From: Escherichia phage vB_EcoM_EC001
Sequence record: MN445185.1
DNA length: 64,000 bases
Reading direction: 5' to 3' (one strand)
How positions within the stretch are numbered: the first letter of the stretch is position 1; every line of letters begins with the position of its first letter. The notes under the pieces were generated by a model. It did no database searches. It was not told the origin of the DNA and saw only the letters and a list, made by a program, of their open reading frames with translations. Positions 23,828 to 40,123 of the stretch are shown in pieces. A program made the translations under genes and the position numbers.

Positions 23828-24466
23828 ATGCAATTACAATTTCGTCAACGGTCTGTACTACTACCGTTTAGCGCTATATTAGGTTCGTTTACCAAAATGC
23901 TGTCTGTGGATTTTACTGCAGCTGAGAAAGAAGCGCTGTTATTGGCGGCAGTCGAAGAAGTATTGTGGGAGGCATTTTACGTAGTGCCGTTTCGTAGCTG
24001 CTTAAACGCCCCGTATGTTGAAGGGCAGTTTGTCAGCGCGCTTTCCGCCGCGATTACCAAACGTAAACTAAATGCCATGGCGCATGTCAAAGAGATCACC
24101 GCGCAACGAGGACGGATATTCGCTGCCGTCAGAAATGTGTTAATTAAAGAAGGGTTTCTTGCAGATGCGTTAGGTCCCGAAGTTCCTTGGGAACCAGGCC
24201 ATCCGCCGCGTCAGTTTGACCACGGGTACAAGTTAAATATAATTATGCCACGCGGTAAGCGTGACGTCTCATTGGGGAAATGGTTACAGATAAGTTGGGT
24301 TCGTCCTACTATCGATTGGCAAGAAATGTCGGTCAATCGCTATCTGGAACACCTGGCAAAAACACCGGCACAGTTTCACCGTTCAACAATCCTGCCGCTA
24401 CACATGCTGTTAAAACCGTCCCTGTCATTGGCAGAAGCCAGATACCTGCTTAGTGGAGAGAAGTGA
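23828..24466 (+). CDS. hypothetical protein
   Basis: 212-aa ORF; start may be a downstream in-frame ATG. Confidence 0.5.
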   Translation: MQLQFRQRSVLLPFSAILGSFTKMLSVDFTAAEKEALLLAAVEEVLWEAFYVVPFRSCLNAPYVEGQFVSALSAAITKRKLNAMAHVKEITAQRGRIFAAVRNVLIKEGFLADALGPEVPWEPGHPPRQFDHGYKLNIIMPRGKRDVSLGKWLQISWVRPTIDWQEMSVNRYLEHLAKTPAQFHRSTILPLHMLLKPSLSLAEARYLLSGEK

Positions 24467-24948
24467 TGCTTGTTATTAATGTGGTCGAGGATAAGATTCC
24501 CGCGAATGTTTATCCTGAACTGGTTGAATGGGTGCGCGACTTAAACAGTATCCGCGAGGAGCCTATTAAACTCACGATGTTTGTTGAGGATGATATCGTG
24601 CGTGGAATCATGGCATGGGAACCTGGCCATTTGGTCTATATGGTAGTGCCCGAAGAATCGCGGCGGGGCGGTGTCGGCAGATTTATGCTTAAGTATCTTC
24701 AGCAGAACTCCGATCGTAAACACATCAGCTGTCGTGTTCACCCGACCAACATTCCCGCGCTAGGATTCTTTCACCAACAAGGCTTCCAGATTGACCGATG
24801 GTATATTGCTGCTGACGGCCAACGGTATTTTCGTATGACGAACTACAATGTTATTTCGTCACACACGCCACCGGAGGAAAAGCTTTTAACTCATTACGCT
24901 GAAAGCGTTCCCATTTTTCTCTCGATGGCAGAAGGTCATTTCGTCTAA
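24463..24948 (+). CDS. GNAT-family N-acetyltransferase
   Basis: motif A VPEESRRGGVGRFML and motif B NIPALGFFHQQGF. Confidence 0.65.
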   Translation: MMLVINVVEDKIPANVYPELVEWVRDLNSIREEPIKLTMFVEDDIVRGIMAWEPGHLVYMVVPEESRRGGVGRFMLKYLQQNSDRKHISCRVHPTNIPALGFFHQQGFQIDRWYIAADGQRYFRMTNYNVISSHTPPEEKLLTHYAESVPIFLSMAEGHFV

Positions 24949-24965
24949 ACGAGCGAGAGTGTATA

Positions 24966-25442
24966 ATGATACGTGTTGCTTACGAAACACGAGATACGGA
25001 TGGAACCCGTATAAACGTCATCCGCCGTGTGGAGCTTGTTCCTCAGCATGAACTGAATATTGCAGACAGTTCGCTTAGGGGCACTCCTGTTAAGATTCTG
25101 AATCTTACGAGACGTTCTTTTCATCACAGTAAGACTTCACCAGCAATACGGTCCAGTAAAAGAAAAAGTTATGCCGATTTAAAACATCGGTTGTCCCGGC
25201 ATTTTCGTCGGAGTGCCTGGAAGGCTTTAGTTGAGATTTTGGTTGACGAACACCTTATCCAGAAGTTGGAATGGGAAGAGGTTCTCAAGGAAGCGGGCTA
25301 TCCAACTAAACCTTTCTCTTATCACTGGCATCACTTCAAAAAACAGTTCCATGATACTTTACAGGTATCGCCAAACACTCGCAACATGATTCACCGTTTG
25401 GAGAAAATGGACTGGCTTCTACCCTATCTGGAAGAGGACTAG
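24966..25442 (+). CDS. hypothetical basic protein
   Basis: 158-aa ORF. Confidence 0.5.
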   Translation: MIRVAYETRDTDGTRINVIRRVELVPQHELNIADSSLRGTPVKILNLTRRSFHHSKTSPAIRSSKRKSYADLKHRLSRHFRRSAWKALVEILVDEHLIQKLEWEEVLKEAGYPTKPFSYHWHHFKKQFHDTLQVSPNTRNMIHRLEKMDWLLPYLEED

Positions 25443-25444
25443 AT

Positions 25445-25834
25445 ATGATGCGTGCTGTATTAGCTGTGTTTATAATTTGCGTTACTACGTCAGTATACGC
25501 GTTTACTGTTCAGGACTTCCCGCAATACAAACCAATGTGGGAAACTGACGCACCTGTGAAATTCAGCGACAAAGATGAACCAGTCGTGTCGGTGGAGAAG
25601 GGTGAGTTTGCCGTGGTCAACTACGGACGTTCTGAACTGTGTCCAGGCGGTGGCTTTTATCTCATTAACACAAAGCGTAAGACGTACCAGCCGATAGATG
25701 CCGGTACGTGTTCGCCGAAAGTTAAAGCGACAATTGTCCCGTCAGTACGAACACATCGCAGCGTTAATACCCACCAGTTAACTTTTTGGGTAGGTAAAGA
25801 AATTTCCGCGCGGTATCCTTTGTACGATTACTAA
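25445..25834 (+). CDS. secreted or periplasmic protein with N-terminal signal peptide
   Basis: N-terminus MMRAVLAVFIICVTTSVYA then polar mature region. Confidence 0.55.
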   Translation: MMRAVLAVFIICVTTSVYAFTVQDFPQYKPMWETDAPVKFSDKDEPVVSVEKGEFAVVNYGRSELCPGGGFYLINTKRKTYQPIDAGTCSPKVKATIVPSVRTHRSVNTHQLTFWVGKEISARYPLYDY

Positions 25835-25852
25835 ACACAGCGTATAGGGGCT

Positions 25853-25880
25853 TCGGCCCCTATACTGTTTATTATTTTCC
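25853..25880 (+). terminator. rho-independent terminator (UUCG loop)
   Basis: TATAGGGGC-TTCG-GCCCCTATA then T-rich tract. Confidence 0.8.
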
Positions 25881-25924
25881 TGTGAAGTATTATGACCCCC
25901 TTAATCAAATACCAGGAGCGAGGC

Positions 25925-26542
25925 ATGTCTTTTGTTATTGACTTTAACCACCATCATAGTCAAACCTTGCTCGATTTAGTCAATGCTTTTAATGCTGAAA
26001 CCGTTTATACGCCCCTGACCACAGAACGTATCCGAGTGGAGAGTTATGGTCCACCGGAACCGGACGGTCGTGTAAGTGCTTTGCTGACTAATAAGAGTAA
26101 GCCAGATGACTATGTGGTTGTGCGTTACCGCAAATTGAGCTTAAATGATATAATCACGTTGAAGCCTGAACATCTCACATGGTTTGATTTGTCGAAAGGT
26201 AAACCGGCCGATTTGCGCGTATGGTCTGAACCTGCAATGGCCAGTTTTGAATCGGCGTGTGCAGAACGTGGCATCGTTGTAAGTAAGGCGTGGGAAAACC
26301 CCGCGCAATGCCACGTAGAGTACGACATCCCGACTGATCGATACGTCCTCGTCTATGAATGTGAATCATTTGTTTACGAATCGCGCACACGCATTACGCT
26401 ACCGTACCATATCGGCCAAGACTTAACCAAGACAACGTTGCCTGGTCTGGAATACGACTTGGCTGGTTTCTGGGGGCATAAGCTGTTAGAAGAAGTGACT
26501 ATCACGAAGCTTAACGGTTTTCGTTATCGTGAGTTTGTTTAA
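25925..26542 (+). CDS. hypothetical protein
   Basis: AGGAG 6 nt upstream of ATG 25925; ORF-track start 25892 lacks a ribosome-binding site. Confidence 0.55.
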   Translation: MSFVIDFNHHHSQTLLDLVNAFNAETVYTPLTTERIRVESYGPPEPDGRVSALLTNKSKPDDYVVVRYRKLSLNDIITLKPEHLTWFDLSKGKPADLRVWSEPAMASFESACAERGIVVSKAWENPAQCHVEYDIPTDRYVLVYECESFVYESRTRITLPYHIGQDLTKTTLPGLEYDLAGFWGHKLLEEVTITKLNGFRYREFV

Positions 26543-26549
26543 GACACTA

Positions 26550-26590
26550 CCCTCGCCCGTTTAGCGAGGGTAGGTATTTATTTTTTTCTT
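26550..26590 (+). terminator. rho-independent terminator
   Basis: CCCTCGC...GCGAGGG stem then TATTTATTTTTTT. Confidence 0.8.
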
Positions 26591-26623
26591 ACGAATCGTC
26601 CACTCCGTATAGGAGGTAAGTCC

Positions 26624-27223
26624 ATGAAAAAGATTTATAAAATTGCGGTAATCGGTTCTCGGAAGACCGATGAAGATACCATGTCTGAAATGTACATGCG
26701 ATTGTTACGTGGGTTTAATGCGCTGCACGCCAAAGATTACACGATTCGTTTTTCTTCTGGCGGCTGCTGGTGTGGTCCAGACCAATTGCAATTCCGATTT
26801 GCCCGACAGTGGGCGAATACAATAGACCAAGATACCGGCAAGAAAGTGGCGTGGGATGATGAGTTCATTTGTTACCTACCCGATGAGAAAAAGCTCTGGC
26901 TCAGGAAACAGAATCCCAACGTAGAGTTCCGTGTAATCCCTCAGGATGACCGCTATCGTGAGATAGTAGGTAAGCTTCATCCCGCGCCAGAAAAGCTCCA
27001 GGAGTTCGCCTGGGCGCTTCACGGGCGTAATCTGAATATAATTATGGGCGATGATTTAGCAACGCCTGTAGACGCAGTCTATTACTCTGCGCCTTTAGAT
27101 AAACAAGGTAATCCGACCGGCGGTACTGCAATGGGCGTAAAATACGCTAAGCAGTGTGGTATTCCTTGTTACCACCATGCGCTTGAAGGACATCTGTGGC
27201 TTGAGAGCTTGTGCTTATTATGA
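26624..27223 (+). CDS. SLOG/DprA-like Rossmann-fold protein (tentative)
   Basis: N-terminal AVIGSR and downstream SSGGCWCGPD resemble the GSR ... SGG.G.D pattern of the SLOG superfamily. Confidence 0.35.
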   Translation: MKKIYKIAVIGSRKTDEDTMSEMYMRLLRGFNALHAKDYTIRFSSGGCWCGPDQLQFRFARQWANTIDQDTGKKVAWDDEFICYLPDEKKLWLRKQNPNVEFRVIPQDDRYREIVGKLHPAPEKLQEFAWALHGRNLNIIMGDDLATPVDAVYYSAPLDKQGNPTGGTAMGVKYAKQCGIPCYHHALEGHLWLESLCLL

Positions 27224-27253
27224 CCACGTTGCCTTTAATCAGAGGTCGCTATT

Positions 27254-27526
27254 ATGCAAACAACCGGTTTAGCTCGTCGTTTGTGGGAAGCCTTCTTCCC
27301 CACGCCATCAAAACCCATTAAGAAGGTGACTAGCCTTCGCTTGTTCCCAGGCACCGAGGATGAGTTCTTCGATTACCTGGAACGGCATGGTTTTGATTCG
27401 AAAGTTGCACCGCAGGAAAATGACCCAATTCAGACGGTCTACACTACACCGGATACGGGTGAAATATTTGCTTTGTGTGTTCGCTGGCCACATCGTAATT
27501 ATTACTACACTTTGACGCAGATATAA
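27254..27526 (+). CDS. hypothetical small protein
   Basis: 90-aa ORF. Confidence 0.5.
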   Translation: MQTTGLARRLWEAFFPTPSKPIKKVTSLRLFPGTEDEFFDYLERHGFDSKVAPQENDPIQTVYTTPDTGEIFALCVRWPHRNYYYTLTQI

Positions 27527-27536
27527 GGAGCAGGGG

Positions 27537-28670
27537 ATGTCGACGCTCGATTTAGATTTAGAAGTCCTGACTGACGACTACGATCGCCTGGTCGCACTCG
27601 AAGGTCTGGGAGTTAAGCCCGACTTCCCTGCGGTTTGCGCGATTCGTCAGCGTTGGTGCTTAACCGACGACGGTGAAGATATGTTGGTTGCTCGTGAATC
27701 GCGTGAAGCGATGGAGCGTGCTCAGTTTATGACTGATACCGACCCGCGAGCTGGTATCCATCGCGCAGCAGGGCGCATTACTGCGAAGGCTGTTAAAGGC
27801 GCTGGAAAGTTAGTGGGTGCTGGACTAGGTGCAACCGCAAAGGGTGCGGGTAAACTTTCGAAAAAGCTCGCATTACGCTTTTACGATTTCGCGGAAGCGC
27901 TAGCGAAAGAACAAGCCGACCGTTTGAAAGAAATAACTTCGAAAGCTGCTTTCATGGAACGTAAGCTCAATAAGCTTAAAACGCGAATGTCGCTGCTAGA
28001 TGAGCACAAAACACTCGCTGCAGTTGACGTTCACACTAGCAGCTGGACGTCTAAAATTTGTTTTGAAGATCGACCCGATTTTGAAGCGTGTGTTCGGTTT
28101 TCTAAACAAACAAATGCGTACGAAGGCGTCGTGCAAAAGTACACGGTTTACACACGCACTGCTCTGAAGAAAAGCAAAGCATTCGAAGGGCCGGGCTTAA
28201 AACAAATCAGCAAGTCCACAAACTGGGCAGTTAAGCGTGCCGCTGGATTGCTTGGCATCATCGATCCCTTTAAAAAGGTGGAAGCTTTTCCTGTTCCTGG
28301 AAATATCGTTGTGGTTGAGCACCATAGTGGTAAGATCAGTTGGGCAATTGCGCGTGACGGCGATTATGGTGAAACCATTAAATCGCTGGATATGCATCAG
28401 TGTGGGAAAGCAATAGAGGCTGTGGAAGCACTTATCAAATCTATTGCTGCGCGCGGAACAAAGAACCGTGTTGTAGGCTACACTGGTATCTACGAAGAAG
28501 TGGAAGCGATGAAGTCCGAGCTTAAGAACCTGGAAGGGGATGAGCTGAAAGAAGCCACTTTGCGCTACCGCAATGCAATGGCGATGGAAGACGCTTTTAC
28601 CACGGCATTGGTACGTGTGGCGGAGGGTCTAATGGAATGGACGAAGCAATCGCTGGCCGAGGTGAACTGA
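27537..28670 (+). CDS. hypothetical protein with Gly/Ala/Lys-rich repeat
   Basis: GGGGATG start context; internal KGAGKL repeats. Confidence 0.55.
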   Translation: MSTLDLDLEVLTDDYDRLVALEGLGVKPDFPAVCAIRQRWCLTDDGEDMLVARESREAMERAQFMTDTDPRAGIHRAAGRITAKAVKGAGKLVGAGLGATAKGAGKLSKKLALRFYDFAEALAKEQADRLKEITSKAAFMERKLNKLKTRMSLLDEHKTLAAVDVHTSSWTSKICFEDRPDFEACVRFSKQTNAYEGVVQKYTVYTRTALKKSKAFEGPGLKQISKSTNWAVKRAAGLLGIIDPFKKVEAFPVPGNIVVVEHHSGKISWAIARDGDYGETIKSLDMHQCGKAIEAVEALIKSIAARGTKNRVVGYTGIYEEVEAMKSELKNLEGDELKEATLRYRNAMAMEDAFTTALVRVAEGLMEWTKQSLAEVN

Positions 28671-29131
28671 TGAAGATTATTACCATAGTGGGGCCAGACA
28701 CGGCTAACGGCAGGAAATATTCCACAGATATCCTCGCGCTTTATAACGAGCTGGACAAAAGCGAAATAGAAAGCTATCGAAAAGAGACGGGTATTAATGT
28801 CCGTTTTACGCCGGCTAAATCGTTAGCCGAGCGCTTCCGGGGTCGTTTACTGGCGGTCGTGGACGACGGTGTCTTGTATGGCTTTGCGCAATACCGCACG
28901 ATGACTGAAGAGGGTGTGACGATGATGTCGGTATCCTCACTGGTCGTTAGCAGCAGCGCACGTGGTAAAGGTTACGGCACCGCGTTGATGGATGCGGTAA
29001 AGAAATCCGCAACGGAAAAAGGGTGTACAGTTGTTCACCTGTCCGTGAACGCCGGTAACGCTGCCGCGAAGTCGCTCTACGACAAAGCTGGCTTTAAGGT
29101 AGGTGCTTACCAGATGTATTGGAGGGTGTGA
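28670..29131 (+). CDS. GNAT-family N-acetyltransferase (tandem paralogue 1)
   Basis: motif A SSARGKGYGTALMDAV, motif B NAGNAAAKSLYDKAGF; N-terminus MKIITIVGPDTANGRKY parallels the next gene. Confidence 0.7.
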   Translation: MKIITIVGPDTANGRKYSTDILALYNELDKSEIESYRKETGINVRFTPAKSLAERFRGRLLAVVDDGVLYGFAQYRTMTEEGVTMMSVSSLVVSSSARGKGYGTALMDAVKKSATEKGCTVVHLSVNAGNAAAKSLYDKAGFKVGAYQMYWRV

Positions 29132-29595
29132 TGAAAATTGTTTTTGTCACCAAGCCCAACTCTCCGTATGGAAAGAAATACTACGCGGACTTGTTAGGAC
29201 TACACAACAAGTTATACGACGATCAGAAAATAAAACTTGCCGACTTAAACGGTCGTGAAGGGTTTAATCAAATCTCAAAACTGGAGGAGGTTTGGGGTGA
29301 AGGTACGCTGTGCGCTTGCGCCGTTGATGACCGTGGTGTGGCTGTTGGTTTCATCACCTTTGGCTACACCAAAAAGGGACAACGTTTCCTCTGGGTATAT
29401 AACTTTTTTGTAGATGAATCGGTTCGTTCACAAGGCGTTGGCCATGAACTGATCGAAGCCGTAGAGAACTATGGCAAATCAAAAGGCTGCGCATGGATGC
29501 AGCTTAACGTGCTCGGTAATAACGACCGTGCTATTGCGTTTTATGAACGTTTCGGATTCCGAACTGAATACCAGGATATGGTAAAGGAGCTTTAA
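29131..29595 (+). CDS. GNAT-family N-acetyltransferase (tandem paralogue 2)
   Basis: GGAGGG ribosome-binding site; motif A VRSQGVGHELIEAV, motif B NDRAIAFYERFGF; N-terminus MKIVFVTKPNSPYGKKY. Confidence 0.7.
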   Translation: MKIVFVTKPNSPYGKKYYADLLGLHNKLYDDQKIKLADLNGREGFNQISKLEEVWGEGTLCACAVDDRGVAVGFITFGYTKKGQRFLWVYNFFVDESVRSQGVGHELIEAVENYGKSKGCAWMQLNVLGNNDRAIAFYERFGFRTEYQDMVKEL

Positions 29596-32789: not shown

Positions 32790-32828
32790 CCCTCTTACCT
32801 TCGGGTAAGAGGGTATTGTCTTTTTTTA
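32790..32828 (+). terminator. rho-independent terminator (UUCG loop)
   Basis: CCCCTCTTACC-TTCG-GGTAAGAGGG then T-run; same stem as 5775. Confidence 0.85.
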
Positions 32829-33324: not shown

Positions 33325-33711
33325 ATGAATTGGTTTGTAAATGGTATCACCCGTCGCGTGATGACGGAAGAGGATGATCGATGTAAACATCTTAAAGTGG
33401 GCTCTATAGCCCCGCGCTATACGGCAGAGTGCGACCCATGGGGCCGCGAAACGTATTACATGTGCGAAGACTGCTGGGAAAAACTGCAGGCTGCAATTGC
33501 GGCGGAAGAAGTGGTCTGCGACGACTGCAAAGGTACCTTCCCGAAACGGGATACCGTTGAGTGGAAATGGTACGACTTTGACCCCAGTCAAGGGGATAAA
33601 GAACTCTGTATCTGTAATAACTGTGTGTCGTTACCGGTACATTTAAACCGTGTAGAGAATGACCGTCGGGCATTTGAACACGACTTTCCAGAAGCAACTT
33701 TCTGGGATTAA
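33325..33711 (+). CDS. Cys-rich zinc-finger protein
   Basis: multiple CxxC pairs (CEDCW, CDDCK, CICNNC). Confidence 0.55.
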   Translation: MNWFVNGITRRVMTEEDDRCKHLKVGSIAPRYTAECDPWGRETYYMCEDCWEKLQAAIAAEEVVCDDCKGTFPKRDTVEWKWYDFDPSQGDKELCICNNCVSLPVHLNRVENDRRAFEHDFPEATFWD

Positions 33712-34243
33712 CTAGTGTAAACCTTAAGGAGTATATCATGGCGAAGGCCCCTAAAACTGTAGCAAAAGATTCAACGGCAAGCACCGCGACTAAATCTGCA
33801 AAAACGTCTACTACAGAATTTCCACGTTCACCTACCATTCCTAAACCGGATGTAATTGTACCAATCAGTGAACGTCTGAAAACGATTCACATCGAACGTG
33901 AATTTCCGATTGACCTTGGTCAGGAAATCGTTGCGGTTAATCTTGGTAGTGATGTCCGCTTTACTATCTACAAGGGATTAACTAGTGTAAACCTTAAGGA
34001 GTATATCATGGCGAAGGCCCCTAAAACTGTAGCAAAAGATTCAACGGCAAGCACCGCGACTAAATCTGCAAAAACGTCTACTACAGAATTTCCACGTTCA
34101 CCTACCATTCCTAAACCGGATGTAATTGTACCAATCAGTGAACGTCTGAAAACGATTCACATCGAACGTGAATTTCCGATTGACCTTGGTCAGGAAATCG
34201 TTGCGGTTAATCTTGGTAGTGATGTCCGCTTTACTATCTACAA
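33704..34243 (+). repeat. perfect tandem direct duplication, 2 x 270 bp (33704-33973 and 33974-34243)
   Basis: both copies read base-by-base as identical; unit includes ribosome-binding site AAGGAG, ATG and first 79 codons. Confidence 0.9.
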
Positions 34244-34664
34244 AGGCGCGCATCTGAACAACATGGTGCTAACCCGCGGTGATGAAGTTATCGGTCTGTC
34301 TCGTTACGACACGCAAATCGAAAACATCTATCCGGTGTTTGCAGTAGCGATGTTGCGTTTGTTCATGCAGGATAAAGCCGACCTTTGTGGTCAGCTTGCG
34401 GGTATGGCGGATCGTGTTGGTCATATTCTGCCGACGCTGGTGAAACTGTACCCAGTTACGATTGACGTGGCGTTTACTACTGTAGACAACAACCACGGTT
34501 ATATCGTGCTGACCAAAGACGGTAAAGTTATCGCTGGCAATCTGACTGATAACGAAGTGCAGAAACATATGGACAAATTTGCGTTCATGGTGAATCGCTT
34601 AGCGCACGTCAGTGTCAAACATTCCGAAACTTGGACGGCGCTTGCCTCCAAACCGGAACTGTAA
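33738..34664 (+). CDS. hypothetical protein carrying in-frame duplicated N-terminal region (alternative start at second ATG, 34008, gives the unduplicated protein)
   Basis: 308-aa ORF; residues 1-79 repeated at 91-169, joined by translated former leader LTSVNLKEYI. Confidence 0.6.
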   Translation: MAKAPKTVAKDSTASTATKSAKTSTTEFPRSPTIPKPDVIVPISERLKTIHIEREFPIDLGQEIVAVNLGSDVRFTIYKGLTSVNLKEYIMAKAPKTVAKDSTASTATKSAKTSTTEFPRSPTIPKPDVIVPISERLKTIHIEREFPIDLGQEIVAVNLGSDVRFTIYKGAHLNNMVLTRGDEVIGLSRYDTQIENIYPVFAVAMLRLFMQDKADLCGQLAGMADRVGHILPTLVKLYPVTIDVAFTTVDNNHGYIVLTKDGKVIAGNLTDNEVQKHMDKFAFMVNRLAHVSVKHSETWTALASKPEL

Positions 34665-34667
34665 TCA

Positions 34668-34705
34668 TTAAGGGGTCTTCGGACCCCTTAATTTTTTGTC
34701 TTTTT
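34668..34705 (+). terminator. rho-independent terminator (UUCG loop)
   Basis: TTAAGGGGTC-TTCG-GACCCCTTAA then T-run. Confidence 0.85.
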
Positions 34706-34753: not shown

Positions 34754-35752
34754 ATGAAAACTGTGGCTAAATTGTTTCGCACCAGCATCCGCACTGCCGA
34801 GTTCCGAAATAACGTCGGTACCGATACTGTACGAGCACGCCGCCTAAAAGAGTTTCTAAAGGACGAGACTTATTCTGTTTACGTGGTGAAGAATAAAGAA
34901 ACCTGGGAGGGTTATTTAGTGGCCACCTATCGACACGGTGACCCTACACTAACCTGTCACTATTTTGAGGAGTTTGTACCTGGGGCGTTCGATAAAGTTG
35001 GTTTGGCCCTTGTGCTCGACCATACCGGATTCGAATATATGTCGTGCCCAGCACCTACTGACGATGTTGAACAAAAACTGGTCGAAAAAGGGTTTGTTCT
35101 TTCAGATATCGTTTGGGCATGTCATTCCAAACTGTTTGACAAAGTAATAACCGCACCGGAAATCAAGATTATTTCTGGTGATGCATACGCAGAACTTACC
35201 AAGGATGATAAAGACGTTATCCTGAATTTGATTAGCGGTGCAATTTGCGAAGAGCTAGAATACGATATGCGTGGCTACTATACGCACATTGGTCCGTTAG
35301 CAGAAACAGTAATAGCAAGAATTCAGCACGCTAATGTGGAGACTGCAATTTGGCGAGACGGTCATGATATCGTCGGTATTGCCCAGATGCGCTTGGTTAC
35401 ACCAGGCGTCGTTGAACTTTCTGGTTTAACCGTTGCACCCACGCACCGTAAACGTGGCATTGGTCGCCGGCTAATGGGCGCGCTATTCGATTTCGCACAA
35501 CGTCATTCCGACCAAGTCTATATTGAAACAGCTGCTGATAATAATCCAGCAAATCACCTGTATGGCAACATCTTACGTTGCAAGCAGGTACTGCGTACAC
35601 TAACGTTGAAACGCGATCCTGAACTTATTAGCTGGAAACGGGTGAATGGAAACCGCGCCGATCGTGTGCTGAAAGAAGAACCTAGCTTTCCGGTGGAGAC
35701 TACAACCAGGCTGACTATTAGTGATATGTTTCAATCTGGCATGAGAGGATGA
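34754..35752 (+). CDS. two-domain protein: N-terminal unknown domain fused to C-terminal GNAT acetyltransferase
   Basis: ATG 34754 with GAGGG upstream; C-terminal motif A VAPTHRKRGIGRRLMGALFDFA and motif B NNPANHLYGNI. Confidence 0.6.
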   Translation: MKTVAKLFRTSIRTAEFRNNVGTDTVRARRLKEFLKDETYSVYVVKNKETWEGYLVATYRHGDPTLTCHYFEEFVPGAFDKVGLALVLDHTGFEYMSCPAPTDDVEQKLVEKGFVLSDIVWACHSKLFDKVITAPEIKIISGDAYAELTKDDKDVILNLISGAICEELEYDMRGYYTHIGPLAETVIARIQHANVETAIWRDGHDIVGIAQMRLVTPGVVELSGLTVAPTHRKRGIGRRLMGALFDFAQRHSDQVYIETAADNNPANHLYGNILRCKQVLRTLTLKRDPELISWKRVNGNRADRVLKEEPSFPVETTTRLTISDMFQSGMRG

Positions 35753-35758
35753 TAACGG

Positions 35759-36577
35759 GTGATAAGACCAATTTTAAAATGGATGGGTGGTAAGAGTCGT
35801 GTACTGCCCGAGCTGCTACAGGTGTTTCCGGATGCTGAGTATTTCGTTGAACCTTTTGTGGGCGCAGGGTCAGTGTTTTTAAACACTAAATACCCGAACT
35901 ATATTCTCGGCGACACGAACCCGGACTTAATCGAGTTACTGACCATGGCGCGCGATCGTCCGGAAGCGCTGATTCTGGAAGCAAAGGCGCTCTTTGCAAA
36001 TGGGACGGACCGCGGTCTGTACATGAAACGGCGTGAGGAATTTAACAGCGAGACAACCACGGGGAAACCTAATCTCCAGCGCGCCGCGATGTTCCTGTAT
36101 CTTACACGTCATGGTTACAATGGTTTGTGCAGATACAATCAGTCGGGTGGGTTTAACGTGCCCTATGGTCAACACCCGAACGGTGTCTATTTCCCTGAAG
36201 AGGAAATTCTGGCGTGGGCAAAACGTTGTTCGGAAACCAACGTCGAGCTGCTCTGCGCGGACTTCCGCGATATCCTAAATAAATGCCCATCTAACGCTGT
36301 GATATACGCTGACCCGCCCTATATCCCTCTTTCGGATACGGCTAAACACGCGCAGTATCACAGCAAAGAATTTTCACAAGCTGACCACCGCGAGTTAGCG
36401 AAACTTTTAAAACAACAAGCTGCCGATGGCAATAAGGTCGTTCTGTCAAACGCAGATACGTTACTCACACGCGATATTTATTACGGCTTTACTTGGCGCG
36501 AAGTTCAGGTAGGTCGATATATGTCTGCGGATGCGAATAAGCGTAAAGCGGTGACGGAGCTAATCGGCACCTTATAA
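35759..36577 (+). CDS. dam: DNA adenine methyltransferase (Dam family, expected GATC specificity)
   Basis: ILKWMGGK vs E. coli Dam FLKWAGGK; FVEPFVGAGSVFLN identical block; catalytic DPPY; LYLTRHGYNGLCRYN vs LFLYLNRYGYNGLCRYN. Confidence 0.85.
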   Translation: MIRPILKWMGGKSRVLPELLQVFPDAEYFVEPFVGAGSVFLNTKYPNYILGDTNPDLIELLTMARDRPEALILEAKALFANGTDRGLYMKRREEFNSETTTGKPNLQRAAMFLYLTRHGYNGLCRYNQSGGFNVPYGQHPNGVYFPEEEILAWAKRCSETNVELLCADFRDILNKCPSNAVIYADPPYIPLSDTAKHAQYHSKEFSQADHRELAKLLKQQAADGNKVVLSNADTLLTRDIYYGFTWREVQVGRYMSADANKRKAVTELIGTL

Positions 36578-36586
36578 GGTACCAAC

Positions 36587-37390
36587 ATGCAACTATTTAA
36601 TCTATACGGTATGGACAAAAATGACCTGACCGTAGAGTTTAGTGGTCGATTGACCACCTTGGGGCAACTCCGTGAACGGATTCAAGATTTGCGACCCGTC
36701 GCAGACCAAGAAGACGATCATTGGTTAGTGTTGAGCAATAGCGGTCGTGCGCAAATGTATTTTCGTGGATGTCGTTCAGGTATTGTTTACTACATCTACG
36801 AGTTGCACGTGCTTTCCGAGCCCCTGTTCCACGAGTGGAAGCGTTTAACGCGACTCCTGGAAGTGCAGATGCTCGATATTACCTGCTTTCCGCATGACAC
36901 TGAGCACGCAGCACTATACCAGCGCCTGGGGTTCGAAGCTGTAACGAAGCGTGTGGAGATTACTGTCAGTCCGAAATACGGCTTTACGTCAGACCCATCA
37001 GTTGTCCCGTTGGAGACATTGTCATTAGAACAAACCCAGGATGTTTGCTATCTGATGCGACCTACGCTAAAAGACGCAGGAACGCGTGAGATGTTGGGTG
37101 AATTAGCAAATGGTTTTGTCTCTGCGTTCGTGGGGTTGCACGGCCAGAAACCGTTTTCATTAATGCTTTATAAGGAATTCCCGAAGTGCATCATTACTGA
37201 GCAATTCTGCTGCCAAACTTTTGACCCGGTTGCTTACTCGGTAGAGTTTCTAAAACACTACCACGCTATTTTGCATTTGGCGGGACAGAAAGGTAAGAAG
37301 GTCAACATGGGTGTTGCGATAGAGCACGAGTTTCCTTCTATCGAAGGGTTAGAGTATCGTGTAATCACGCACCACTACACCCTTGCGTAA
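36587..37390 (+). CDS. hypothetical protein (weak GNAT-like motif)
   Basis: 267-aa ORF; HAALYQRLGFEAV resembles GNAT motif B only. Confidence 0.5.
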   Translation: MQLFNLYGMDKNDLTVEFSGRLTTLGQLRERIQDLRPVADQEDDHWLVLSNSGRAQMYFRGCRSGIVYYIYELHVLSEPLFHEWKRLTRLLEVQMLDITCFPHDTEHAALYQRLGFEAVTKRVEITVSPKYGFTSDPSVVPLETLSLEQTQDVCYLMRPTLKDAGTREMLGELANGFVSAFVGLHGQKPFSLMLYKEFPKCIITEQFCCQTFDPVAYSVEFLKHYHAILHLAGQKGKKVNMGVAIEHEFPSIEGLEYRVITHHYTLA

Positions 37391-37399
37391 GGAGAGAAT

Positions 37400-38212
37400 A
37401 TGCTGAGAGTTATCGAACGCACGGAGAGGATTCTGGACCGAACGTGGTTGGAAGACCGTAAGGCGTTATCGTTGTTAAATGATATCGATCCTTCCACGTT
37501 ACAAGATGAACGTCGTCTTTACTACCGAATCTTTGAAGTGTTCAGTCGGGACACGGTTGAGCCTGACGCGATCGTGCTCTGTCTGGACCACGGATACATG
37601 TTAGAAGTTATCAATATGGTTCGTGCTTTAGACGCCCAGTTAACCTCGCTTGCGGATTCCTTACTTCGTGCAGCTGGGCGTAACTACGCGATGCATTTTA
37701 CTCGTTCTGAAGGGGACGAATATGCACGCATGGGCTTTTGTTGCGAAACGATAAACTACCGCAAAATTAATACATTGGTGCCTAGCCACGATGAGGATTT
37801 CTGTGGGGATGTCAGTTCGTTGTTCGATAGTAAGAAAGCGTTCTTGGATTGGGTTAGAATGCTTTACGGTAAAAGCTCTATCTACTCAACGCTCGTTACG
37901 GGCGGGAGGCTGATGTCGTGGCGAAACGCTGATAGCTACAAGTTGACAGTGCTTTCGCACCGTGGGCATCGCTGGGTTATCGGTGGATGGTTTACCGCAG
38001 AAGGGGTGGTTACTCTAAGCCGAGAGGAGTTCGGGCTGTTGATGCACTGTATCCAGTCTGAATTACCAGTGGGGGATGAACTGATTTACACCTACCACCA
38101 ATATACTGGGGGGCCTGCCGCAATGTGGTTATTAGAAAACGGTTGGCTACCCGAAAGTTATGTCTACGGACGTGCCCTGAAAACTACTAATGGAGAAAAT
38201 AATGCAAATTAA
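37400..38212 (+). CDS. hypothetical protein
   Basis: GGAGAG ribosome-binding site; 270 aa. Confidence 0.55.
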   Translation: MLRVIERTERILDRTWLEDRKALSLLNDIDPSTLQDERRLYYRIFEVFSRDTVEPDAIVLCLDHGYMLEVINMVRALDAQLTSLADSLLRAAGRNYAMHFTRSEGDEYARMGFCCETINYRKINTLVPSHDEDFCGDVSSLFDSKKAFLDWVRMLYGKSSIYSTLVTGGRLMSWRNADSYKLTVLSHRGHRWVIGGWFTAEGVVTLSREEFGLLMHCIQSELPVGDELIYTYHQYTGGPAAMWLLENGWLPESYVYGRALKTTNGENNAN

Positions 38213-38480
38213 TCGTACAGTGTCGAAGTCTAAAGAAGTCGTTTACAACGTTGAAGACGGTGATGTAATGCAGTTCCGTGCCGTTATTGACGAACAGCAC
38301 GTACTCCAAGTTGTTTATTCGAAAGAAGAGATGACTCGTGCACATAGTCGCGTGTTGGAAAAACTCGTCGCGAAAGCCAAACAGCGCGACGGTATTAAAT
38401 CCTACAACGTCATGTACGGTTATCAGTTACGTGAGGTGGAAGGGGAGCTGTTAATCACCCCTGTTCCGGTAACGGCATAA
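38202..38480 (+). CDS. hypothetical small protein
   Basis: GGAG 6 nt upstream of ATG 38202. Confidence 0.5.
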   Translation: MQINRTVSKSKEVVYNVEDGDVMQFRAVIDEQHVLQVVYSKEEMTRAHSRVLEKLVAKAKQRDGIKSYNVMYGYQLREVEGELLITPVPVTA

Positions 38481-38520
38481 TTCGCCATTGTATGACCCTT
38501 AAATACCGTTGAGGTTAACT

Positions 38521-39003
38521 ATGGATATGATCGAATTAGGTCAGCTCCCTCAGCACGATTTTGATTTAGGCGTGCGTCATGAGGAAGGGGCCGACGCGAA
38601 CACACTAATGGCCCGCTACTACGAGCTACTGACCGGTCAACCGTTGGACGATGAACACATCAACCGTTTTGAAAAACTGTTGGCACAACTCATCACCTCT
38701 AACGCAGAACGCATTGGCATGTTAAACGAAATGAACTTTGCTGATGTGGAGCCGTCTGACGCTCAGAAGATTCTTATCGATGGTCCTGTACCAAGCGATG
38801 AGGTACAAGACCTTCTGGCAGGTATCCGTGCAGGCTTCGATGAAGCTGCTGAGAAATACGCGGAAGAGCTGGCAGATGTCGATTTGGCTGCGCCGGTTGA
38901 CCCGAATCCGTCTGCAGAGGAGACTGCAGCTGCGAAATTGAAACTCGCACGCTTTATCTGTGCTGCTGTCCTGACAGACGACCGCGAAGAAAACCAACTG
39001 TAA
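38521..39003 (+). CDS. highly acidic protein (160 aa)
   Basis: GAGGT ribosome-binding site; Asp/Glu-rich throughout. Confidence 0.55.
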   Translation: MDMIELGQLPQHDFDLGVRHEEGADANTLMARYYELLTGQPLDDEHINRFEKLLAQLITSNAERIGMLNEMNFADVEPSDAQKILIDGPVPSDEVQDLLAGIRAGFDEAAEKYAEELADVDLAAPVDPNPSAEETAAAKLKLARFICAAVLTDDREENQL

Positions 39004-39008
39004 GGTCT

Positions 39009-39046
39009 ACCTCCTTGCCCATGGGTAAGGAGGTCCCTTTTTATTT
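39009..39046 (+). terminator. rho-independent terminator
   Basis: ACCTCCTT...AAGGAGGT stem then CCCTTTTTATTT. Confidence 0.75.
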
Positions 39047-40083: not shown

Positions 40084-40123
40084 CCCTACCTAACTTCGGT
40101 TAGGTAGGGTTCTTTTTATTTTT
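40084..40123 (+). terminator. rho-independent terminator (UUCG loop)
   Basis: CCCTACCTAAC-TTCG-GTTAGGTAGGG then T-run. Confidence 0.85.

What the first reader, a model, noticed from the sequence alone, without database searches (positions are those of the whole stretch)
35759..36577. Phage Dam methyltransferase as a candidate anti-restriction and regulatory function
The gene carries all Dam hallmarks (KWMGGK, FVEPFVGAGSVFLN, DPPY, GYNGLCRYN). Phage Dam enzymes methylate GATC to evade restriction or to time packaging and gene expression. It lies inside the acetyltransferase-rich block, consistent with a counter-defence island.
Basis: established knowledge. Interest (0 to 1): 0.4.

Follow-up and report, generated by a model that had tools for sequence, protein, structure and literature searches.

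The report
Phage Dam methylase in GATC-poor genome
This is the already-annotated GATC-type DNA adenine methylase of SPN3US-like giant Salmonella phages, so it is ordinary as a gene; but the phage has removed GATC almost everywhere except one conserved AT-rich control element outside this window, which hints that the enzyme marks a packaging or replication signal rather than simply hiding DNA from restriction enzymes.

Summary
Window 35759-36577 (+) is an intact 272-aa Dam-family N6-adenine methyltransferase. All four quoted motifs are present, and the EcoDam residues that read GATC are conserved. The window is a SPN3US-like nucleus-forming jumbo phage. The gene is SPN3US_0105, annotated as a DNA adenine methylase in more than 30 public records, and the anti-restriction idea is already published.

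The acetyltransferase-rich neighbourhood is real: at least 5 GNAT-fold proteins in 14 kb, including the downstream neighbour, shown here to have a tandem GNAT fold. But the Dam block is syntenic across genera, so it does not look like a variable counter-defence island. No nuclease partner was found, so Dam is an orphan.

New here: GATC is the most depleted of all 256 tetramers (window O/E 0.39, SPN3US genome 0.40, Dam-carrying Erwinia relatives 0.22). Depletion is weaker in Dam-less Goslar (0.69). Leftover coding GATCs are neither clustered nor conserved.

The one significant GATC cluster in SPN3US (8 sites in 223 bp) flanks a unique 116-bp AT-rich core. It is conserved in all five Dam-carrying lineages examined and resembles P1 pac or oriC. 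This favours a signalling role, which is inferred, not shown. The gene is already known; interest is modest.

The parts
35759..36577 (+). dam: orphan Dam-family (alpha-class, D12) N6-adenine DNA methyltransferase, 272 aa, GTG start; orthologue of SPN3US_0105
   Evidence: ORF; PF02086 3.6e-54, TIGR00571 258.5 bits; EcoDam structures E about 4e-58; 98% aa identity to SPN3US gp105; best PADLOC model is 'orphan methyltransferase', 1.3e-85
35743..35749 (+). Shine-Dalgarno-like GAGAGGA, 9 nt upstream of the GTG start
   Evidence: read directly from the sequence; identical in SPN3US
35777..35794 (+). KWMGGK N-terminal motif; K7 is equivalent to EcoDam K9 (first-base-pair contact)
   Evidence: residue role from PMC4417163
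35843..35884 (+). FVEPFVGAGSVFLN: AdoMet-binding motif I (FxGxG; F33, G35, G37)
36113..36163 (+). Target-recognition hairpin GYNGLCRYNQSGGFNVP. Y120, N121, L123, R125 and P135 correspond to EcoDam Y119, N120, L122, R124 and P134. The next residues, Q138 and H139, replace R137 and Y138.
   Evidence: residue mapping; roles from PMC4417163
36311..36322 (+). DPPY catalytic motif IV (D185-Y188)
34754..35752 (+). Upstream gene (SPN3US_0104 orthologue): 332-aa protein with a C-terminal GNAT acetyltransferase domain; its stop lies 6 nt before the dam start
   Evidence: PF00583 2.1e-14; PHROG 8663; present in Kwan (gp131) but absent upstream of dam in Asesino
36587..37390 (+). Downstream gene (SPN3US_0106 orthologue): 267-aa protein with a predicted tandem GNAT fold; starts 9 nt after the dam stop; adjacent to dam in three genera
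37400..38212 (+). Second downstream gene (SPN3US_0107 orthologue), 270 aa, function unknown; adjacent to the previous gene in three genera
   Evidence: No Pfam hit. The AlphaFold2 model is unusable (pLDDT 42.7), although its secondary-structure order resembles that of 0106. hhalign against 0106 and 0104 is not significant.
38190..39003 (+). Two small genes of unknown function (orthologues of SPN3US_0108 and 0109) that complete the tightly packed unit
   Evidence: ORFs; PHROG 7896 for the first; no Pfam hit
34667..34692 (+). Strong terminator-like hairpin (11-bp stem, UUCG loop, T-run) marking the upstream end of the GNAT-dam-0106-0107-0108-0109 unit
39009..39034 (+). Strong terminator-like hairpin (11-bp stem, T-run) marking the downstream end of the unit
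24463..29595 (+). Upstream part of the acetyltransferase-rich block: three small GNAT genes (24463-24948, 28637-29131, 29119-29595)
   Evidence: Pfam GNAT hits. The two adjacent genes are 34% identical paralogues. The first of that pair is absent from SPN3US, SEGD1 and SPFM4 and present in Lh1B, JN03 and phage 1252.

Best explanation
Shown by homology: the ORF encodes an intact orphan DNA adenine methyltransferase of the EcoDam type. It uses S-adenosylmethionine, flips out the adenine of GATC and methylates N6. It has been inherited vertically, under purifying selection, in the SPN3US / Erwinia clade of nucleus-forming jumbo phages. It sits in a tightly packed, terminator-bounded unit with GNAT-fold proteins.

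Inferred role, about 40% likely: its main job is not blanket camouflage but marking a signal. These phages have purged GATC throughout the genome, and the leftover coding sites turn over freely. A dense, conserved set of GATC sites is kept on both sides of a unique AT-rich core, inside a roughly 1.7-kb non-coding region (SPN3US nt 33-255, outside this window). I propose that phage Dam is imported into the phage nucleus, where host Dam is presumably absent. There it sets the methylation state of this element and gates either the first terminase cut, as Dam methylation does at the P1 pac site, or origin firing, as at oriC. Protecting the few remaining GATC sites from GATC-directed host nucleases (MutH, MboI/DpnII-type enzymes) would be a secondary benefit.
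For: Identity: PF02086, TIGR00571 and EcoDam structures; conserved GATC-reading and catalytic residues (with PMC4417163); 14 synonymous against 4 non-synonymous codon differences from SPN3US; full-length orthologues at 54-99% identity at the same map position in at least four genera.

Orphan status: no nuclease domain in the flanking genes. The only annotated 'endodeoxyribonuclease' in SPN3US is a DEDD-type exonuclease.

GATC purge: window 114 observed / 292 expected, z -14.4, rank 1 of 256. After a synonymous-codon shuffle, 108 observed against 247 +/- 11. SPN3US genome 489 / 1207, z -28.9, with every 10-kb window at 0.25-0.60. Asesino and Kwan 0.22. Dam-less Goslar 0.69 genome-wide. phiKZ 0.85 in a 50-kb sample.

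Leftover coding GATCs carry no signal: they are not clustered, and only 6 of 33 are conserved against Asesino (18%, compared with 27% for all tetramers).

The element: 8 GATC in 223 bp, a count reached in 0 of 2000 random placements. The 116-bp run of at least 90% A+T is essentially unique in 240 kb. The same architecture has 5-8 GATCs in SPAsTU, Asesino, Huxley and Kwan, where about 0.2 would be expected. Three GATCs are invariant inside the two most conserved blocks, and further GATCs lie at non-homologous flank positions. The boundary motifs occur once per genome and are absent from Goslar, which has no GATC cluster beyond chance.

Precedents: P1 pac has 7 GATC hexamers in two arms around a central IHF/cleavage region, and cleavage depends on methylation (PMC10028697; PMC12707154). 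Chimalliviruses are known to import a DNA-protecting enzyme into the nucleus (PMC13309987).
Against: Nothing here shows that the enzyme is active, what it methylates, when it is expressed or where it localises. The element is outside the given window and was read in relatives (SPN3US is 96.6% identical to the window). Dam and the element co-occur in a single clade, so this counts as one evolutionary event, not five independent ones. The invariant GATCs sit inside longer invariant blocks, which could be protein-binding sites that contain GATC for reasons unrelated to methylation. GATC is also the most avoided tetramer in Dam-less Goslar, so the purge does not depend on the phage Dam. The GATC contexts are not a repeated hexamer as in P1. 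The element lies about 4 kb from the large terminase gene rather than inside a pacase gene. GC skew does not identify an origin.
Confidence: 0.45

Rival explanations
1. Protective self-methylation. Phage Dam methylates progeny DNA so that the next host's GATC-directed nucleases cannot cut it. These include MboI/DpnII/Sau3AI-type restriction enzymes, and MutH acting on unmethylated DNA. Avoiding GATC and methylating it would then be two layers of the same defence.
For: Orphan phage methyltransferases commonly act this way (PMC12707154), and the idea has been suggested for SPFM/SPN3US-like phages (PMC6614189). Strong GATC avoidance shows that GATC is a liability in enteric hosts. The literature attributes such avoidance to Dam/MutH (PMC5014478). 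Host Dam is probably excluded from the phage nucleus, so a phage copy would be needed. The nucleus is not a complete shield (PMC13309987).
Against: If the enzyme protected GATC sites efficiently, selection against them should relax. Instead the Dam-carrying lineages are the most depleted (0.22-0.40, against 0.69 in Dam-less Goslar). The usual hosts are dam-positive. The phage nucleus and early-infection vesicle already exclude restriction enzymes (PMC12908238). DNA modification is reported to be uncommon in this family for that reason (PMC7824862; PMC13282480). This model does not explain the conserved GATC cluster.
Confidence: 0.3
2. Host-directed Dam. The enzyme stays in the cytoplasm, cannot reach phage DNA inside the nucleus, and over-methylates the host chromosome. 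That would disturb SeqA sequestration, mismatch repair or Dam-regulated host genes to the phage's benefit.
For: Phage DNA is physically separated from cytoplasmic proteins in this family. Dam overproduction is known to perturb E. coli mismatch repair (PMC5014478). A cytoplasmic Dam would leave phage GATCs unprotected, which fits their strong avoidance.
Against: There is no positive evidence. The host is already Dam-methylated, so any gain would be small. This model does not explain why a GATC cluster is conserved in phage DNA in exactly the lineages that carry Dam.
Confidence: 0.08
3. Dam works as part of a module with the co-transcribed GNAT-fold proteins (0104, 0106, perhaps 0107). For example, the unit might modify a shared target or regulate Dam by acetylation, so that the unit as a whole is an anti-defence or takeover module.
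For: Gaps of 6-9 nt between genes and bounding terminators suggest co-transcription. The order dam-0106-0107 is conserved in three genera. 0106 has a tandem GNAT fold.
Against: Much of this genome is syntenic across these phages, so gene order is weak evidence. The upstream GNAT is missing in Asesino. There are no hits to defence-related models. No known system couples Dam with GNATs. By eye, 0106 lacks the usual acetyl-CoA-binding Q/RxxGxG/A signature (not tested).
Confidence: 0.1
4. The enzyme is not GATC-specific, or it is an inactive relic.
For: Two residues implicated in first-base-pair and phosphate contacts differ (R137 to Q, Y138 to H). [quoted passage not shown] The score is below the cutoff of the chromosomal-Dam equivalog model (246.6 against 441).
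Against: All catalytic, cofactor and base-pair 2-4 contact residues are intact. The protein is 42% identical to EcoDam over its full length. All three solved homologues it matches (EcoDam, DpnM, T4 Dam) are GATC enzymes by established knowledge. It shows purifying selection and is retained across genera.
Confidence: 0.04

Closest known systems
E. coli Dam (EcoDam; PDB 2G1P, 4RTJ)
   Same: Same fold and the same motif order (AdoMet-binding FxGxG, then the recognition hairpin, then DPPY). It is 42% identical over 261 aligned residues. K9, Y119, N120, L122, R124, P134, D54 and DPPY are all conserved.
   Different: It is phage-encoded and forms its own clade, with the nearest bacterial or prophage Dams 43-50% identical. 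It falls below the chromosomal-Dam equivalog cutoff. R137 and Y138 are replaced by Q and H. Its biological partners (SeqA, MutH, oriC) are presumably absent from the phage nucleus.
Phage P1 Dmt (Dam) with the P1 pac site
   Same: A phage-encoded GATC methylase, paired with a short cis element that has GATC sites in two arms around a central region. In P1, methylation licenses the packaging cut (PMC10028697; PMC12707154). The SPN3US-clade element has 2-4 GATCs on each side of an AT-rich core.
   Different: The GATC contexts here are not a repeated TGATCA/G hexamer. The element is intergenic and about 4 kb from the large terminase gene, not inside a pacase gene. The core is a 55-116-bp run of nearly pure A+T, flanked by alternating CGCG tracts. 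No cleavage or methylation data exist. Sequence relatedness to P1 Dmt was not tested.
oriC-type origins controlled by Dam (gammaproteobacteria)
   Same: An AT-rich, easily unwound core with an unusually dense cluster of GATC sites. The left boundary GATCTTTTAAAA loosely resembles the GATCTnTTnTTTT 13-mer of E. coli oriC (recalled from memory, not tested).
   Different: Initiator-binding repeats were not looked for, and GC skew is uninformative. SeqA and DnaA are host proteins with no known access to the phage nucleus.
Phage T4 Dam (PDB 1YFJ)
   Same: An orphan GATC methylase of a large virulent phage whose role in vivo is still unclear (PMC12707154).
   Different: It is only distantly related (E about 5e-11), and T4 DNA is hypermodified.
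SPN3US_0105 and its orthologues in public phage records
   Same: This is the same gene: 96-99% amino-acid identity in 23 Seoulvirus-like records, 85% in SPAsTU, 69-81% in Erskinevirus and pEa_SNUABM_29, and 53-55% in Wellingtonvirus, Machinavirus and related Erwinia phages. Most are annotated as DNA adenine methylase.
   Different: The GenBank starts of SPN3US_0105 and ASESINO_121 are truncated at the N-terminus.

Membership tests
Dam family / D12-class (alpha-group) N6-adenine DNA methyltransferases | Scores above the curated cutoffs of PF02086 and TIGR00571 | tested here: met
   PF02086 184.6 bits (cutoff 22); TIGR00571 258.5 bits (cutoff 114.85)
Dam family / D12-class (alpha-group) N6-adenine DNA methyltransferases | AdoMet-binding motif I (FxGxG) N-terminal, recognition hairpin in the middle, catalytic motif IV (DPPY) C-terminal | tested here: met
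   F33-G35-G37, hairpin residues 119-139, D185-P-P-Y188
Dam family / D12-class (alpha-group) N6-adenine DNA methyltransferases | GATC-reading residues of EcoDam (K9, Y119, N120, L122, R124, P134) | tested here: met
   All six are identical. R137 and Y138 are not conserved (Q138, H139) (roles from PMC4417163)
Dam family / D12-class (alpha-group) N6-adenine DNA methyltransferases | N6-methylation of the adenine in GATC, shown experimentally | not testable with these tools
   Needs DpnI/MboI digests or long-read 6mA calling
Housekeeping chromosomal Dam (NCBIfam equivalog NF008152) | Score above the equivalog cutoff (441 bits) | tested here: not met
   246.6 bits. It is a Dam-family enzyme but not the chromosomal orthologue.
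Type II restriction-modification system | A cognate restriction endonuclease gene next to the methyltransferase | tested here: not met
   The neighbours are GNAT-fold or unknown proteins with no nuclease domain. The best PADLOC model is 'orphan methyltransferase'. SPN3US_0206 is a DEDD exonuclease.
P1-type methylation-gated pac site with a phage Dam | Phage-encoded Dam plus GATC sites clustered in two arms around a central region | tested here: met
   SPN3US nt 33-255 has 8 GATCs around a 116-bp AT core, a count reached in 0 of 2000 random placements. The element is conserved in SPAsTU, Asesino, Huxley and Kwan. It lies outside the window.
P1-type methylation-gated pac site with a phage Dam | Repeated TGATCA/G hexamers, located inside the pacase gene | tested here: not met
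   The contexts vary (GGATCT, TGATCC, AGATCG and others). The element is intergenic, about 4 kb past the large terminase gene.
P1-type methylation-gated pac site with a phage Dam | Packaging starts at the site, and cleavage depends on methylation | not testable with these tools
   The only hint is that at least 7 Seoulvirus records begin inside the AT core. That could equally reflect assembly breaks or records aligned to one another.
Dam-controlled replication origin (oriC-like) | AT-rich unwinding element with a dense GATC cluster | tested here: met
Dam-controlled replication origin (oriC-like) | GC-skew switch or initiator-binding repeats at the site | tested here: inconclusive
   Cumulative skew rises because most genes are on one strand, so it is uninformative. 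The only repeats seen are the alternating CGCGTGCG tracts and a central dyad. Initiator-binding repeats were not searched for specifically.
Counter-defence (anti-defence) island | A variable accessory region enriched in known anti-defence genes | tested here: not met
   dam-0106-0107 is syntenic across three genera, and dam is present in every good-quality Seoulvirus record. No neighbour has a recognisable defence-related domain. Only one small GNAT, 7 kb upstream, varies between strains. No dedicated anti-defence library was available.

The most novel reading that the evidence does not exclude
In the SPN3US / Erwinia clade of nucleus-forming jumbo phages, a nucleus-imported phage Dam and a single conserved GATC-flanked AT-rich element form a methylation switch. 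The switch licenses the start of headful packaging (like P1 pac) or origin firing. The genome-wide purge of GATC keeps the signal unique as well as avoiding host GATC-directed nucleases. This would be the first epigenetic cis-regulatory switch described inside a phage nucleus, and the first candidate pac or ori site for this family.
Probability: 0.3. Interest if true: 0.6.

Novelty: already known. Interest (0 to 1): 0.3.

Why it matters
As a gene this adds nothing. It is annotated in dozens of near-identical phages, and the anti-restriction idea is already in print. What may matter is the pattern around it. A nucleus-forming phage, which should hardly need DNA camouflage, keeps a Dam enzyme over long evolutionary distances. 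At the same time it purges the enzyme's target from its genome, except at one conserved non-coding element. If that element is the packaging start or the replication origin, it would give chimallivirus biology its first defined cis-acting site and a simple genetic handle: three invariant GATCs and one non-essential-looking gene. It would also caution against automatically labelling phage orphan methylases as anti-restriction.

Tried and rejected
1. Functional GATC sites inside the window. GATC spacing matches a Poisson expectation (28 gaps of 150 bp or less, against 26.5 expected). Only 18% of the sites are shared with Asesino, below the 27% for all tetramers. So this window holds no pac-like or regulatory cluster.

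2. Codon usage as the cause of GATC depletion. Rejected: the depletion survives a synonymous-codon shuffle (z -12.4).

3. Local depletion only. Rejected: every 8-10-kb window is depleted.

4. A hidden restriction partner. None was found next to dam, and the single annotated endonuclease in SPN3US is an exonuclease.

5. Paralogy among 0104, 0106 and 0107. hhalign was not significant (E 0.11-0.32). The fold of 0106 settled its GNAT nature. The 0107 model was too poor to use (pLDDT 43).

6. GC skew to locate an origin: uninformative.

7. Rfam scan of the conserved 900-nt non-coding stretch beside the element: only the downstream tRNAs were found.

8. A GATC-free counterpart of the element in Goslar. 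Goslar's only AT-rich intergenic run is unrelated.

9. Literature on Dam function or localisation in chimalliviruses, and on SPN3US termini: nothing found. gp104-gp107 are not mentioned in the main text of the SPN3US essential-gene/virion paper that was searched. That is only weak evidence that Dam is not a virion protein.

10. Dam absence was verified genome-wide only for Goslar. For phiKZ and PCH45 only 50-kb samples were examined.
Full report
**1. The observation**

Window 35759-36577 (+) is one uninterrupted ORF of 272 codons with a GTG start and a TGA stop. The opposite strand is full of stops. The protein matches Pfam PF02086 (D12-class N6-adenine methyltransferase, E 3.6e-54) and NCBIfam TIGR00571 'dam' (258.5 bits, cutoff 114.85). 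It also matches the solved E. coli Dam structures over its whole length (E about 4e-58), then DpnM (4e-40) and T4 Dam (about 5e-11).

- A GAGAGGA ribosome-binding site lies 9 nt upstream.
- Homology to EcoDam begins at residue 3.
- The Asesino and Kwan orthologues start with ATG at exactly the equivalent codon.

The GenBank annotations of SPN3US_0105 (start 24 nt downstream) and ASESINO_121 are therefore N-terminally truncated. The SPN3US one removes the lysine equivalent to EcoDam K9.

**2. Where the window comes from**

The region is 97.3% identical to Salmonella phage JN03 and 96.6% identical to SPN3US (Seoulvirus), a 240-kb jumbo phage. SPN3US is reported to form a phage nucleus (PMC13282480). 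The gene is SPN3US_0105, 'putative DNA adenine methylase'. Full-length orthologues sit at a similar map position in many records:

| Phage group | Amino-acid identity |
|---|---|
| 23 Seoulvirus-like records | 96-99% |
| SPAsTU / STsAS | 85% |
| pEa_SNUABM_29 | 81% |
| Asesino, phiEaH2, Stratton | 69-70% |
| Kwan, Wellington, ChrisDB, Caitlin, Huxley, Machina and others | 53-55% |

The nearest non-jumbo relatives are Enterobacterales Dam-family proteins, possibly prophage-borne judging by their lengths and contig sizes (47-50%), and chromosomal Dams (43-45%). Against SPN3US there are 14 synonymous and 4 non-synonymous codon differences. So this is an old, vertically inherited gene under purifying selection. 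[quoted passage not shown]

**3. Specificity**

I mapped the protein onto EcoDam (42% identity). The residues that read GATC are all identical: Y119 and N120 (intercalation and pairing), L122 and P134 (third base pair), R124 (fourth base pair) and K9 (first base pair). So are FxGxG, D54 and DPPY. R137 and Y138 are Q and H here (residue roles from PMC4417163). GATC specificity is therefore a strong inference but not a demonstration. The first base pair is the least certain position, and the same paper notes that this contact varies within the family.

**4. Neighbourhood**

The 'acetyltransferase-rich block' is real.
- Pfam finds GNAT domains at 24463-24948, 28637-29131, 29119-29595 and 34754-35752.
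- The next gene (37400-38212) could not be modelled (pLDDT 43).

Gaps between genes are 6-9 nt. Strong hairpin-plus-T-run terminators at 34667-34692 and 39009-39034 bracket the unit GNAT-dam-0106-0107-0108-0109. The order dam-0106-0107 is kept in Asesino and Kwan. The upstream GNAT is present in Kwan but missing in Asesino.

No neighbour carries a nuclease domain or matches a defence-system model, and the best PADLOC model for the protein itself is 'orphan methyltransferase'. The single 'endodeoxyribonuclease' annotated in SPN3US is a DEDD exonuclease. So Dam is an orphan, and the block looks like conserved backbone rather than a variable counter-defence island. Whether the GNAT proteins work with Dam is unknown.

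**5.

In the window there are 114 GATC sites. The expectation is 249 from base composition and 292 from a maximal-order Markov model. That gives O/E 0.39 and z -14.4, the lowest of all 256 tetramers. After shuffling synonymous codons within 79 ORFs the expectation is 247 +/- 11 against 108 observed (z -12.4), so codon usage does not explain the depletion. Every 8-kb stretch is depleted (0.27-0.63).

| Genome or sample | GATC O/E | Rank of GATC among 256 tetramers |
|---|---|---|
| This window (64 kb) | 0.39 | 1 |
| SPN3US, whole genome (489 observed / 1207 expected, z -28.9) | 0.40 | 1 |
| Asesino, 41 kb (Dam-carrying) | 0.22 | 1 |
| Kwan, 41 kb (Dam-carrying) | 0.22 | 1 |
| Goslar, whole genome (no Dam homologue) | 0.69 | 1 |
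| PCH45, 50-kb sample (Serratia) | 0.76 | 2 |
| phiKZ, 50-kb sample (Pseudomonas) | 0.85 | 19 |

For Goslar I assembled the whole genome from the record. Neither tblastn nor a Dam HMM finds a homologue, and the positive control on the window worked.

GATC avoidance in enterobacterial phages is classical and is attributed to Dam/MutH (McClelland 1984 and Deschavanne & Radman 1991, as cited in PMC5014478). What stands out is that carrying a Dam does not relax the avoidance; if anything the opposite. Because the Dam-carrying genera form one clade, this comparison counts as a single evolutionary event.

**6. Are the remaining GATCs functional?**

Inside the window, no. Their spacing is Poisson-like: 28 gaps of 150 bp or less against 26.5 expected. 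Only 6 of 33 alignable sites are shared with Asesino (18%, against 27% for all tetramers; rank 218 of 256).

Genome-wide in SPN3US there is one exception. Eight GATCs lie within 223 bp at nt 33-255 of the record, and 0 of 2000 random placements reach 8 sites in 225 bp. They flank a 116-bp run of at least 90% A+T. This run is essentially unique in the genome; the only other one is a 42-bp run about 600 bp away across the record junction. The element lies in the middle of a roughly 1.7-kb non-coding region, between SPN3US_0264 and SPN3US_0001.

The layout is symmetric:
- three GATCs
- an alternating CGCGTGCGCGTGCGCACAC tract
- GGATCT
- the AT core, with a central short dyad
- AGATCT
- an alternating ACGCGTGCGGGCGCGCGCGTG tract
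- three GATCs

**7. Conservation of the element**

The non-coding region is detectable by blastn in 62 phage records. The rows shown all belong to lineages in which Dam was found. I fetched the orthologous regions:

| Phage | GATC sites | Span (bp) | Expected from background |
|---|---|---|---|
| SPN3US | 8 | 223 | 0.45 |
| SPAsTU | 8 | 199 | not estimated |
| Asesino | 6 | 204 | 0.22 |
| Huxley | 5 | 220 | not estimated |
| Kwan | 6 | 181 | 0.18 |

All show the same alternating CG tracts and AT core. In a four-genome alignment the two best-conserved blocks are TCCTnCAGGATCTTTTAAA at the left edge of the core and CGCGTGATCCTTATTAnGAGATC at the right edge. They contain three invariant GATCs. 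The remaining GATCs lie at non-homologous flank positions, which suggests selection for GATC density and not only for fixed sites. The central dyad changes with compensating substitutions: TACCTTTAGGTA, TATCTTTAGATA and TCCCGTAGGGA. The boundary motifs occur once in SPN3US and are absent from Goslar. Goslar also has no GATC cluster beyond chance (P 0.88-1.0).

**8. Interpretation**

The pattern has three parts: a target purged everywhere, retained and conserved at one unique non-coding AT-rich element, and co-occurring with a phage Dam. This is what one expects if methylation is read as a signal.

The closest precedent is P1. Its 161-bp pac site has seven GATC hexamers in two arms (HEX4 and HEX3) around an IHF-binding and cleavage region. 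Cleavage requires methylation, and the phage's own Dam is essential in dam-negative hosts (PMC10028697; PMC12707154). An oriC-like origin, with an AT-rich unwinding element and dense GATCs, is the other obvious model.

Some weak circumstantial points bear on packaging. The large terminase gene is about 4 kb upstream of the element across the record junction. At least seven independent Seoulvirus records begin inside the AT core, but that could equally reflect assembly breaks in extreme-AT sequence or records that were aligned to one another.

In a nucleus-forming phage, host Dam is probably excluded from the replication compartment. That would explain why the phage carries its own copy. The precedent of a nucleus-imported DNA-protecting enzyme (PMC13309987) makes import plausible. 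All of this is inference. Activity, timing, localisation and the function of the element are untested, and the element lies outside the window I was given.

**9. Rivals**

- Protective methylation against MboI/DpnII-type enzymes or MutH remains reasonable (about 0.3) and could coexist with the signalling role. It predicts relaxed GATC avoidance, which is not seen, and it does not explain the element.
- A cytoplasmic, host-directed Dam (about 0.08).
- A joint module with the GNAT proteins (about 0.1).
- An inactive or non-GATC enzyme (about 0.04).

**10. Verdict**

Interest in the gene itself is low. The GATC purge together with the single conserved GATC-studded element is a modest but testable lead.

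Noticed in passing
L012 (SPN3US JN641803) 1-330; orthologues at L019 1430-1730 (SPAsTU), L017 1460-1760 (Asesino), L018 1440-1740 (Huxley), L020 1300-1510 (Kwan): A conserved non-coding element outside the window. A 55-116-bp core of nearly pure A+T with a central dyad is flanked by alternating CGCGTGCG tracts and 5-8 GATC sites, three of them invariant across genera. It is the only significant GATC cluster in a genome that otherwise purges GATC, and a candidate pac site or replication origin.
   Followed up: yes
L012 260-1185 (SPN3US), continuing leftward across the record junction to L016 39883-40413: About 1.7 kb of non-coding DNA surrounds the element. The GC-rich 900 nt to its right is about 79% identical to the Erwinia phages Asesino, phiEaH2 and Stratton, which is high for non-coding DNA at this divergence. 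No Rfam family matches it. It could be an unrecognised RNA or more cis-acting sequence.
   Followed up: partly
window 33704-34243: A perfect 270-bp tandem duplication (2.0 copies, 100% match). It duplicates the ribosome-binding site and the first 90 codons of the SPN3US_0103 orthologue, producing a 308-aa ORF (33738-34664) whose residues 91-308 match the whole 218-residue family profile. SPN3US itself has the 218-aa form. It may be a real recent duplication or an assembly artefact.
   Followed up: partly
window 28637-29131 and 29119-29595: Two adjacent small GNAT genes that are 34% identical paralogues. A segment corresponding to the first is present in Lh1B, JN03 and phage 1252 but missing from SPN3US, SEGD1 and SPFM4. 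It is the only strain-variable member of the acetyltransferase block noted here.
   Followed up: partly
window, whole length; also SPN3US, Kwan and Goslar: TATG and its complement CATA are the next most depleted tetramers after GATC. The depletion is strand-asymmetric (window O/E 0.62 for TATG and 0.42 for CATA) and recurs in Goslar and Kwan. AATT is also depleted (0.55 after a synonymous shuffle). From memory, TATG resembles the late-promoter motif of phiKZ-like non-virion RNA polymerases, so this could be avoidance of spurious promoters. Not tested.
   Followed up: no
window, all 114 GATC sites: The flanks of the remaining GATCs are skewed. CGATCG is the commonest context (24 of 114), and GGATCC (the BamHI site) is absent from all 64 kb. 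Within codons the sites fall almost only in phases 0 and 2 (65 and 40, against 3 in phase 1).
   Followed up: no
L001 10784 (SPN3US_0105) and L002 20088 (ASESINO_121): The public annotations start the dam gene too far downstream, by 24 nt in SPN3US and 87 nt in Asesino. This cuts off conserved N-terminal residues, including the KW(M)GGK lysine.
   Followed up: yes
window 32790-32813, 34667-34692, 39009-39034, 40084-40109: Four strong + strand terminator hairpins (10-11-bp stems) sit precisely in intergenic gaps. Three have TTCG loops and one has an ATGG loop. They look like a recurring terminator type that divides this region into short transcription units.
   Followed up: partly
public records LR535901, LR535903-LR535908, LR535911-LR535913, LR535917 (SPFM1, 5-10, 12, 14, 15, 20): These SPFM phage records match the window and the SPN3US non-coding region only as 9-40 short fragments of about 96-99% identity, and their dam and 0106 genes are called as garbled 'hypothetical proteins'. 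They look like error-rich assemblies rather than real gene loss.
   Followed up: no
window 36587-37390: By eye, neither half of the tandem-GNAT protein next to dam shows the usual acetyl-CoA pyrophosphate-binding signature (Q/RxxGxG/A), whereas the upstream GNAT has it (RKRGIGRRL). It may be a non-catalytic or atypical GNAT.
   Followed up: no
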